From Eledone cirrhosa (Eukaryota): a DNA stretch of 64,000 bases. A program made the position numbers and the translations under genes. The stretch spans positions 227,602,001-227,666,000 of the forward strand of contig OZ024743.1 of NCBI GenBank assembly GCA_964016885.1, written 5' to 3'. The notes beneath the pieces are model-generated. The model did no database searches. It was given only the letters and a program-made list of their open reading frames with translations, and was not told the DNA's origin. Numbering within the stretch: position 1 is the stretch's first letter; every line of letters starts with the position of its first letter. This document shows positions 32,601-34,998 of the stretch, one piece after another.

Positions 32601-34998
32601 GATCCCACCACCTGCTGTTGACGATGGCGCCCGTCAACAGCTCCTTAACTAAAGTGCTAATCCGGTCCCTGTAAGCCTTACTTGCCGGTAAGGACAAGTT
32701 GAGCTTCCAGTAACCGGGTCCCTGTCTATGAGTTCTGTCAAGGTTGACCATGCAGGTCACTAACTTGTGGTCTGAATAGCCAACCATGCGCATTTTTGGA
32801 CAACTTAAAAAGTCCTTATCCTTAATTCTAACTAAGAACCTATCTAGGTACGACCTAGATGATCCGCTACGATTTGCCCAAGTCCAGGTTGGCGTAGTCG
32901 GAGAATCTAGTCGATATCTATCGGCCAGGTCAAATCGACCGATTAACCCTTTGAGGCTATTACACCCCTCTCTATCGGGACAGGCCCATACGTAGTCCCA
33001 GCGTACATCTAGGATACCATTCCAGTCCCCCACTAATAGCAAGGAGCGGGACGTCCCTAGAAGAGTCTCCAGACGATGGAAGAAGTCCGGCTGCATTGAC
33101 CCGAAAGGGCCGTAGGCGGCTACCAACCTAAACGCTCCGCCTTTACCACTGCCAAGGTCCAGAACCACTAGTCGACCCTCCGGGTCCAAATGTACCATCT
33201 GTGTTGCGAGACCCAGATGTTTTTGCAGCAGAACGACAACCCCACCCCCACCTCCGGGCTGACAGAGATGCGTGCATCTCAAAGTCATCAAAGGTTTTTA
33301 TTAGATTCTTGTTGTACACAATGTTTAACAGTTTTTTTGTTTCTTGTGTTTATGTATGTGTATGCATGTTTTTGTTTTTGTGTGGTGTTTTTTGTTTGCT
33401 GTTGTTGTGAGCGCTTTTGTGTTGGTGTCAGTGTTATGTTTTGGGGAGGGGTTGTTTTCATTTGTGTGTCTGAGGTGTGTTTTCTTTTTTTTCTTTTGAT
33501 TGTGTGGAAGTGCTCCTCCACGTCTGACGACAAACTAGGGTCATCTTTCGCGTTGGAGGGGAGGGGTATATTTTCGGGTTGTGTTTGCGGTGCGGGTGTT
33601 TTGGAAATTGTTTTTGTTTTTTGAGTGGGGGGGATGGGTTGGACATTGTTTTGTTTTGATTTGAGCTGTGGTGGTTGTTTTTGTAGTGGTAGTTGTGGTG
33701 ATTGTGTTGGTTGTGCAGTTGTTGGTGGTGTAGGCAGGATTGGGGTTTTCTTATTGAGTTGGGGACAGACAGCCCTCAGGTTACCTCTGGTTCCGCAGAG
33801 GTAACACGATGGCCGCCTACCCTCAACGGCAATGTTGATGAAAGTTTGATCATCCAGTATGACGCGTTCAGGGATCTGGGCGATCCTTTCGGGCCTCATT
33901 TGAACTACAAGTTCGAGGCTCGTTCCACTGAACGCGTCACCCGATGCCTTTCCCATGGACACCAGCGTGTCATCATCCAGGTCCAGGAAACCTGTCAAAA
34001 CCCACCATATGTCCATAATCGGCAGGATGGTGTGGATTTTTATTTTTTGTGTTCTTCTACCCATGTACGTAGGGTAGAAGGTGTATGCGGTGGATGTGAT
34101 TGGTTTGATGGACAGTTTCACTGCTGTGTCCCTGTCCTTCATGAGAATGGATAGAGTCCCGTAGAGTCTATCCTTCTGAATGAAGGTTATGTCCTTCATG
34201 ACGTCTTTTAAAACCAGCTCTATCTCACTCAGTGATGGTTGAGCTGGTTTTTTGCTTTTATTCGAGATTGTCCTAAACATGACAGTGTTTAGGAGTCTCT
34301 GGTTTTTAGTTCCGGAGGGGGGGGGGGATGGATCGTGAATGAACCATTTTCCCCGTACACTATATATTTTTTGGCATCTGCCAGTAGCTCCTTCGCTTTG
34401 GTTATATCTACTGGCAGATAGTCGAGGGTTTTCCTTGCCGTCTCGGCGAAGGAGACATTTTTTTTGTTTGTGTTGCTGTTGTAGTTGGTGGTGTTGTTGT
34501 TATCATTGTTGTTGTTATCTCAGTTATTGGTCTTGTTGTTGTTGTTATTGTTATTGGTGTTGTTTTCGTCCGTCGCATTGTTGTTGTTGTTGCTGTTGCT
34601 GGTGCCGCTGGTTCTTTGGTTTGTTGCCATGGCAGCGTCAAGTTGTCGGTCAACAGGTGGAGAAAACCCTTCCTCTGGCTGTCCTTTCTTTTTGACCTCT
34701 GCTACTGTGACAGTGGCAGGGGGAAGCTGTAAGCTTATCTTCCCCTTTCCTCCTTTGAATTTTGGTGAAGATGCTTCAGCCATTTTTATCAAAATTGTAT
34801 TTTTCGAAATTTTTCGAAAGATTAAATTTTTACAACACTATTTCGCCTAAAGGCGTAGAATATTTTGAGAGACTGACCAGATCAAAGTTTGACCTGGCAG
34901 TCTCTCTACAAAATGGTACAAAAATGAAAGTTTACAGTTCACAATTTCCAGATAAATTTAAACGAAACTTACCGAGCGAGCTCACCACATGTGTCTAA
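29622..34998 (-). mobile_element. Tx1-like LINE copy 5: full-length, frameshifted, ORF1/ORF2 junction deleted at about 33293
   Basis: ORF1 ATG 34783, knuckle CYLCGTRGNLRAVC. ORF2 very similar to copy 3, stop at 30018. Tail 29622-29752. Confidence 0.93.

What the first reader, a model, noticed from the sequence alone, without database searches (positions are those of the whole stretch)
34906..34972. Length-conserved 66-69-nt GT..AG mini-intron in the 5' UTR of every 5'-complete Tx1 copy
Seen: about 25-45 nt from each 5' end lies an AT-rich segment with splice-like ends. Copy 1, 9743-9677: GTATGT..TTTGTAG, 67 nt. Copy 4, 29598-29530: GTAAGT..TTTTGTAG, 69 nt, with CTAAT branch-like motif. Copy 5, 34972-34906: GTAAGT..TTTTGTAG, 67 nt. 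Copy 13, 53656-53722: GTAAGC..TTGTAG, 67 nt. Copy 14, 59725-59790: AG|GTTTGT..TAAG, 66 nt. Interiors have diverged between subfamilies while ends and length are kept. Retroposition normally removes introns, so retention implies the unspliced RNA is the selected template, and splicing may mark a translated isoform (inference).
Basis: partly seen in the sequence, partly recalled or inferred. Interest (0 to 1): 0.8.

Follow-up and report, generated by a model that had tools for sequence, protein, structure and literature searches.

The report
LINE retrotransposons keeping a 5' mini-intron
A large family of LINE retrotransposons in this animal genome keeps splice-site sequences around a short segment of its 5' leader in nearly every lineage, yet no genomic copy with that segment cleanly removed was found, so it is likely a real mini-intron whose spliced RNA would make protein while only unspliced RNA gets copied back into DNA.

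Summary
They belong to an L1/Tx1-type LINE group with at least 12,556 ORF2 starts in a 3.0-Gb genome. No precisely spliced genomic copy was found against 3,863 unspliced ones of these families; human L1 shows about 2% (PMC5860796). Across 23 5'UTR families, 18 carry GTRAG (2.3 expected), in two positions: 12 right after a 30-nt head with AG 65-69 nt later (12 of 12), and 8 about 30 nt further in, where that AG is mostly lost (2 of 8 keep it) and a YAG lies 59-62 nt on in 6 of 8. The youngest subfamily lost the AG, but all 57 listed copies have a new AG 6 nt downstream. So 'ends always kept' fails genome-wide, while splice signals look selected. Splicing itself is not shown: one RNA-like run holds the segment unspliced. 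Best reading (0.5): a Penelope-like retained intron in a LINE. Rival (0.3): a U1-binding site that is hardly ever excised.

The parts
34906..34972 (-). Copy 5 candidate mini-intron, 67 nt, GTAAGT..TTTTGTAG (class I)
   Evidence: 336 unspliced genome matches, no precise excision
34973..35001 (-). Copy 5 head (candidate first exon / internal promoter), about 29 nt; this copy lacks the family's first bases
   Evidence: 30 family loci start at this distance after the microsatellite
35002..35094 (.). (TCTA)n microsatellite, target site between copy 5 and the upstream element's 3' end
34868..34905 (-). Predicted hairpin 1, starting at the first base after the AG
   Evidence: single-sequence folds; weak covariation in related families; RNAalifold gave no consensus
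34844..34855 (-). Core of predicted hairpin 2 (C-rich arm, T-rich loop, G-rich arm), seen in most families
34781..34783 (-). ORF1 start codon of copy 5, 219 nt from the 5' end
9677..9743 (-). Copy 1 candidate mini-intron, 67 nt (same 5'UTR type as copy 5)
29530..29598 (-). Copy 4 candidate mini-intron, 69 nt
   Evidence: 75 unspliced matches, 0 short
53656..53722 (+). Copy 13 candidate mini-intron, 67 nt; in the youngest subfamily the AG is moved 6 nt downstream
   Evidence: 2,272 unspliced; only irregular deletions
59725..59790 (+). Copy 14 candidate mini-intron, 66 nt, AAG|GTTTGT..ATAAG; a second GTGAGC lies 15 nt upstream
   Evidence: 1,180 unspliced, 0 short
20068..23502 (-). Open ORF2 (1145 aa; APE, RT, zf-RVT) of a 5'-truncated copy, used to place the family

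Best explanation
The segment carries conserved splice-donor and acceptor sequences in the 5' leader of these LINEs, is present unspliced in every genomic copy that spans it, and is likely a real spliceosomal mini-intron whose spliced RNA would serve as the protein-making message while only unspliced RNA would serve as template, as proposed for Penelope. Shown: signals, their two positions, acceptor turnover, absence of spliced DNA copies. Inferred: Pol II starts at the 30-nt head; U1 binds the donor and protects the intronless 6-kb transcript from early termination; part of the RNA is spliced, exported and translated; the proteins return and act in trans on intron-retaining RNA through its 3' end; spliced RNA is kept from target-primed reverse transcription.
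For: GTRAG in 18 of 23 families, 2.3 expected; one strong donor per family in either of two positions, with a U1-like profile (+5 G in 12 of 12 class I and 8 of 8 class II donors, the two donors weak at +3/+4 having exonic G or AAG). The first AG is kept in 12 of 12 class I families over 5.1 changes per site of ORF1-core tree length but in only 2 of 8 class II families. If only U1 binding mattered, an acceptor would be a liability, so its retention argues that excision is useful (inference). In the youngest copy-13 subfamily (99.2% pairwise, mostly open ORFs) 57 of the first 100 of 2,187 matches lost the AG, all 57 have a new AG 6 nt downstream, 3 have both, 40 the old one, none neither (counted by hand). 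Class II donors have a YAG 59-62 nt downstream in 6 of 8 families, including L256, where a longer spacer and a shorter hairpin leave 60 nt. Precedent: Penelope's 75-bp intron 46 bp after the start is spliced in most transcripts, kept in DNA copies and needed for reporter protein (PMC2377424, passages).
Against: No spliced RNA was seen. In run X4 (kind not on record; RNA-like by its single haplotypes and 3' pile-up) one contig at depth 131.6 crosses both boundaries of the copy-13 segment unspliced, and no joint over it is among the 15 joints shown (858 not shown). Total exclusion (under 0.08% of 3,863) is hard to square with cis preference, which yields about 2% spliced copies for human L1 (PMC5860796). 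The 12-of-12 anchors were partly set by me at the AG; with objective anchors only, it is 4 of 4 against 2 of 8. Only 3 independent starred pairs exist (2 agree, 1 no difference; sign test p 0.5). The AG gain has a 0.24-0.40 chance by drift alone. The class II CAG is base-paired in hairpin 1 (CG 10 of 11, UA/UG 10 of 11), class I families share it, and family L205 (268 matches) changed it to CAA with a matching change on the other arm. One family (L240) has no donor. No conserved branch point; AG depletion of the interior equals that of a control tail.
Confidence: 0.5

Rival explanations
1. U1 landing pad, hardly ever excised: the donor recruits U1 snRNP (perhaps an early spliceosome using the AG) to shield the intronless transcript from Restrictor/Su(s)-type termination, but excision is blocked, and the same unspliced RNA is message and template.
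For: 0 spliced DNA copies; unspliced contig in the RNA-like run; donor better kept than acceptor (18-20 of 23); family L205 keeps GTGAGT without a YAG within 100 nt. A 5' splice site blocks Restrictor without splicing (PMC12211998, passages); a consensus donor protects TE-containing RNA from Su(s) (PMC4691828, passages). Hairpin 1 abuts or contains the acceptor; donors are predicted paired more than shuffles in some families only (5 of 22 at or under 0.05).
Against: Does not explain why the AG is kept at minimal-intron distance whenever the matching donor is kept and drifts when it moves, nor gain-before-loss of AG. Poly(A) hexamers are not enriched in the first 500 nt (14 sense, 25 antisense).
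Confidence: 0.3
2. DNA-level promoter or transcription-factor motif that only looks like a donor, with the AG and length kept by common descent and by hairpin structure (as argued for the human L1 donor inside a RUNX3 site).
For: Class I donors sit at +25 to +44, near where downstream core-promoter elements lie (recalled); human L1 keeps a donor for a DNA-level reason (PMC5860796 Discussion); 5'UTR length (about 200-220 nt) and the spacer length are also kept in families without the first donor.
Against: The motif moves to +56..64 in 8 families and keeps the GTRAGT profile; strand-specific enrichment; AG co-varies with donor position.
Confidence: 0.12
3. Host-imposed or incidental splicing: splicing only inactivates the RNA (or happens only in soma) and the signals persist as passengers.
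For: Splicing harms human L1 (PMC5860796).
Against: Harmful signals should decay; they persist across ORF1 cores only 26-43% identical and were kept through a positional shift.
Confidence: 0.08

Closest known systems
Penelope (Drosophila virilis) and Chlamys-3_cRei 5'UTR introns
   Same: Short intron in the 5'UTR close to the start (75 bp at +46 in Penelope; 60-69 nt at about +30 or +60 here), overlapping the internal promoter region, retained in genomic copies (PMC2377424, PMC8557442; passages).
   Different: Penelope-like elements have a GIY-YIG nuclease and pseudo-LTRs, and their splicing is shown by RT-PCR; this is an APE-RT LINE and splicing is untested.
Human L1 5'UTR splice donor G98U99 and SpIREs
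   Same: L1-type element with a long-kept promoter-proximal donor; most RNA escapes splicing; donor mutation lowers RNA five-fold (PMC5860796).
   Different: L1 introns are 500-900 nt with several acceptors and give about 2% spliced insertions; here the unit is minimal-intron sized, shifts position between families and gave 0 of 3,863.
Microsatellite-targeting Tx1 families Kibi and Koshi
   Same: Tx1-clade LINEs inserted in microsatellites, (TC)n and (TTC)n (PMC4494074, passages); tandem arrays here sit in (TCTA)n or (ATT)n.
   Different: Different repeat units; no Kibi or Koshi sequence was available for a tree; no 5'UTR intron is mentioned in the passages seen.
5' splice site protection from Restrictor (ZC3H4-WDR82) / Su(s)
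   Same: A donor in the initially transcribed region licenses elongation, with or without splicing (PMC12211998, PMC4691828).
   Different: Shown for host genes and reporters, not for an autonomous LINE in the searches run.

Membership tests
L1-group LINE (L1/Tx1) | ORF2 with APE endonuclease, RT and C-terminal zinc-binding part | tested here: met
   Pfam Exo_endo_phos, RVT_1, zf-RVT (last one under its cut-off); best solved relative human L1 ORF2p, E 5e-46, R2 far weaker
L1-group LINE (L1/Tx1) | Separate ORF1, with a CCHC knuckle in Tx1-like elements (feature recalled) | tested here: met
   698-aa ORF1 with C-x2-C-x4-H-x4-C in an intact natural copy
Tx1 clade | Target-sequence preference | tested here: met
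   5' ends abut (TCTA)n or (ATT)n in most of the loci; the two target types fall on separate sides of the ORF1 tree
Tx1 clade | RT tree placement with named Tx1 elements | not tested
U2-type spliceosomal intron | 5' splice site matching U1 (GTRAG, +5 G) | tested here: met
   18 of 23 families strict, 20 of 23 with two variants added after the fact
U2-type spliceosomal intron | 3' YAG/AAG at a workable distance | tested here: met
   12 of 12 class I at 65-69 nt; 6 of 8 class II at 59-62 nt, confounded by hairpin pairing
U2-type spliceosomal intron | Branch point and pyrimidine tract | tested here: inconclusive
   No shared branch motif in class I; interiors AT-rich rather than pyrimidine-rich; AG depletion same as control
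U2-type spliceosomal intron | Excision seen in RNA | tested here: inconclusive
   No run on record as RNA; contigs only; unspliced form present, spliced joint not among rows shown
Penelope-like element | GIY-YIG endonuclease and pseudo-LTRs | tested here: not met
   APE-type ORF2, no GIY-YIG hit; it may work like Penelope but is not one
Known structured RNA (snRNA, SL RNA, ribozyme) | Rfam match at gathering score | tested here: not met
   0 matches in the window

The most novel reading that the evidence does not exclude
An L1/Tx1-type LINE that splits its RNA into a spliced helper message and an unspliced template, as retroviruses and Penelope do, thereby breaking the cis-preference rule, and that has slid its intron to a new position while keeping this split.
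Probability: 0.4. Interest if true: 0.82.

Novelty: new variant of a known kind. Interest (0 to 1): 0.62.

Why it matters
Intron retention through retrotransposition is treated as a peculiarity of Penelope-like elements (PMC8557442, PMC3846280), and LINEs are expected to copy whatever RNA encoded their proteins. A LINE group with thousands of copies that keeps a selected minimal intron and leaves no spliced insertion would show template choice by splicing state in a LINE, or, on the rival reading, a transposon using a U1 site to pass as an mRNA. Natural variants (two donor positions, a moved acceptor, one donor-less family) make both testable with short reporters.

Tried and rejected
No RNA holder listed for the stretch; this blank is no evidence either way. 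Laying four runs on the copy-5 type 5' end gave no joint over the segment; X4 has almost no cover there. Rfam: nothing, so an SL-RNA or snRNA-derived head is not supported. AG-exclusion zone: interior depleted (12 against 25.9) but the control tail equally so (26 against 55.1), rejected as evidence. Branch-point stops: 9 matches at 5 places, no pile-up of 5' truncations near the acceptor. Poly(A) signal load in the first 500 nt: 14 sense, 25 antisense, no support. Donor masking by local structure: suggestive in 5 of 22 families only. RNAalifold found no consensus fold on alignment A1; my hand-drawn structure scored 15 of 500 shuffles, and hairpin 2 was out of register in that alignment. ORF1-core tree rejects class II as one clade (p-AU 4e-57), but long branches and evident recombination mean it may not track the 5'UTR, so the number of donor shifts is unknown. 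The upstream GTGAGC of copy 14 as an alternative donor was not covered by my searches. Family L256: only the first 100 of 279 matches were visible, all unspliced. Earlier scan findings: none. Literature searches (listings only) listed no Tx1/L1-clade element with a conserved retained 5'UTR intron; Repbase reports and subscription journals are outside the library, and no supplements were read.

Full report
Observation. The five segments are present as described. The window lies in a 3.0-Gb, 1,796-contig animal assembly (species not determined) and holds a cluster of LINE copies separated by microsatellites. Five copies are 5'-complete and all five carry the segment; the other ORF2-bearing copies are truncated. 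ORF2 has APE, RT and zf-RVT domains and its best solved relative is human L1 ORF2p; ORF1 has a CCHC knuckle. 'Tx1' fits the microsatellite targeting (PMC4494074, passages) but was not tested on a tree. An ORF2-start motif matches 12,556 places.

Are there spliced copies? I counted exact two-motif matches with the gap set for the unspliced or the shortened form. Copy 1/5 type: 336 unspliced, short form 0, 1 and 1, both irregular deletions that keep the donor. Copy 13 type: 2,272, short form 2 and 7 with wide anchors, all irregular. Copy 14 type: 1,180 against 0. Copy 4 type: 75 against 0. That is 0 precise excisions against 3,863, an upper bound of 0.08%; at the human L1 rate of 1.8% the chance is 3e-31 (rate from PMC5860796, passages and Discussion part 1). 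The irregular deletions show that the search can see losses of this size. Two further families gave 0 against 268 and 0 among the first 100 of 279. 5' truncations do not pile up near the acceptor.

Wider sample. To avoid selecting on the motif I fetched DNA upstream of 120 ORF2 starts, chosen for variety from the 200 rows listed, all on the first 80 Mb of contig C1. About 80 had a complete 5' end (my count by eye; the rest were truncated and dropped), which I grouped by eye into 23 families. All share one layout of about 200-220 nt: a GC-rich head, an AT-rich spacer of 57-82 nt, two predicted hairpins, an AT-rich tail and the ORF1 ATG. Twelve families (class I) have the donor right after the head and AG 65-69 nt later; two single-copy families resemble them with weaker donors. 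Eight (class II) lack that GT but have GTRAGT or GTAGGT 26-34 nt into the spacer; one has none. Strict GTRAG occurs in 18 of 23 (2.3 expected; antisense 4; next 120 nt 1). The first AG is kept in 12 of 12 class I and 2 of 8 class II families (Fisher p 0.0007), but families are related, my class I anchors were partly set at the AG, and with objective anchors it is 4 of 4 against 2 of 8. On an ORF1-core tree of 44 copies the classes interleave; three independent starred pairs give two agreements and one tie. Class II donors have a YAG 59-62 nt downstream in 6 of 8 families, but this CAG pairs with CTG in hairpin 1, is present in class I too, and is CAA in family L205 with a matching change, so structure explains it as well as splicing.

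Acceptor turnover. The youngest copy-13 subfamily (15 copies, 99.2% pairwise, most with open ORF1 and ORF2) reads TG at the acceptor. Among the first 100 of 2,187 matches, 57 lost the AG and all have a new AG 6 nt downstream, 3 have both, 40 the old one only, none neither. This is the order expected if an acceptor is needed, but it is one event with a 0.24-0.40 chance under drift.

RNA. No run is on record as RNA. X1-X3 behave like genomic DNA; X4 looks like RNA (single haplotypes over 1.4 kb, strong 3' pile-up absent from X1), which is my inference. In X4 one contig runs from about 10 nt inside the copy-13 type 5' end across both boundaries unspliced and carries the youngest subfamily's letters; no joint over the copy 13 or 14 segments is among the 15 shown, with 858 hidden. 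Contigs show presence, not absence, so this proves unspliced sequence in that run and nothing about spliced RNA.

Mechanism. The donor behaves as a U1 site: strand-specific, consensus at +5, movable by 30 nt, which a core-promoter element should not be (recalled). A donor near the start protects transcripts from Restrictor even without splicing (PMC12211998, passages; PMC4691828, passages), which would suit an intronless 6-kb transcript. That alone predicts loss of the acceptor, because excision would delete the protective site from progeny. Instead the acceptor is kept at minimal-intron distance and drifts only where the donor moved. I therefore favour a real intron with division of labour: spliced RNA translated, unspliced RNA copied (0.5). 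Penelope is the precedent: a 75-bp intron 46 bp after the start, spliced in most transcripts, kept in DNA copies and needed for reporter protein (PMC2377424, passages; PMC8557442 and PMC3846280, passages). The weak point is the total lack of spliced insertions in an L1-type element, which the landing-pad rival (0.3) explains without extra steps. A DNA motif (0.12) or passenger signals (0.08) fit worst.

Novelty. Nine literature searches (listings only) listed no L1/Tx1 element with a conserved retained 5'UTR intron; a recent octopus repeat paper, read on a guess at the taxon, has no mention of introns or splicing in its main text (PMC13282606, passages). Repbase and subscription journals were not searchable and supplements were not read. 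It works like the Penelope 5'UTR intron but is not a Penelope-like element: new variant of a known kind. Interest 0.62, held back by the lack of spliced reads; 0.82 if the helper/template split is shown.

Noticed in passing
L204, L205, L211-L214, L219, L227, L228: One family has tandem monomers of about 70 nt in variable number upstream of the head, recalling mouse L1 promoter monomers (recalled), and its matches cluster toward contig ends on C1-C3.
   Followed up: partly
window 55913-58071 and 61839-64000; 9631-9814 and 34860-35041: Module swapping: copies 13 and 14 share 97% ORF2-region DNA but have different 5'UTRs and ORF1 starts; copies 1 and 5 share the 5'UTR (80%) but their ORF1 cores are 43% identical.
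   Followed up: partly
window 34844-34905 and homologous places in 23 families: Two predicted hairpins between spacer and ORF1 ATG recur in nearly all families despite sequence change; possible packaging or translation element.
   Followed up: partly
L184-L199 (youngest copy-13 subfamily), first 35 nt: An upstream ATG in a strong context opens an 8-codon frame whose stop codon lies inside the donor.
   Followed up: no
L256 and L205 donors: The class II donor is preceded by a self-complementary stretch: a 14-nt palindrome in many L256-type copies, a U1-like hexamer in L205-type copies (predicted pairing 0.98; rows).
   Followed up: partly
window 54624-55115: Run X4 alone shows a 490-nt joint with GT..AG ends inside ORF1 (depth 67.4, letters between not known); may be a repeat artefact or a second splice.
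   Followed up: no
ORF1-core tree: (ATT)n-targeting and (TCTA)n-targeting copies fall on separate sides of a starred branch, and class II donors occur only on the (TCTA)n side.
   Followed up: partly
window 52048-52506 (-): A 153-codon open frame that resembles the end of another retroelement protein (recalled, untested).
   Followed up: no
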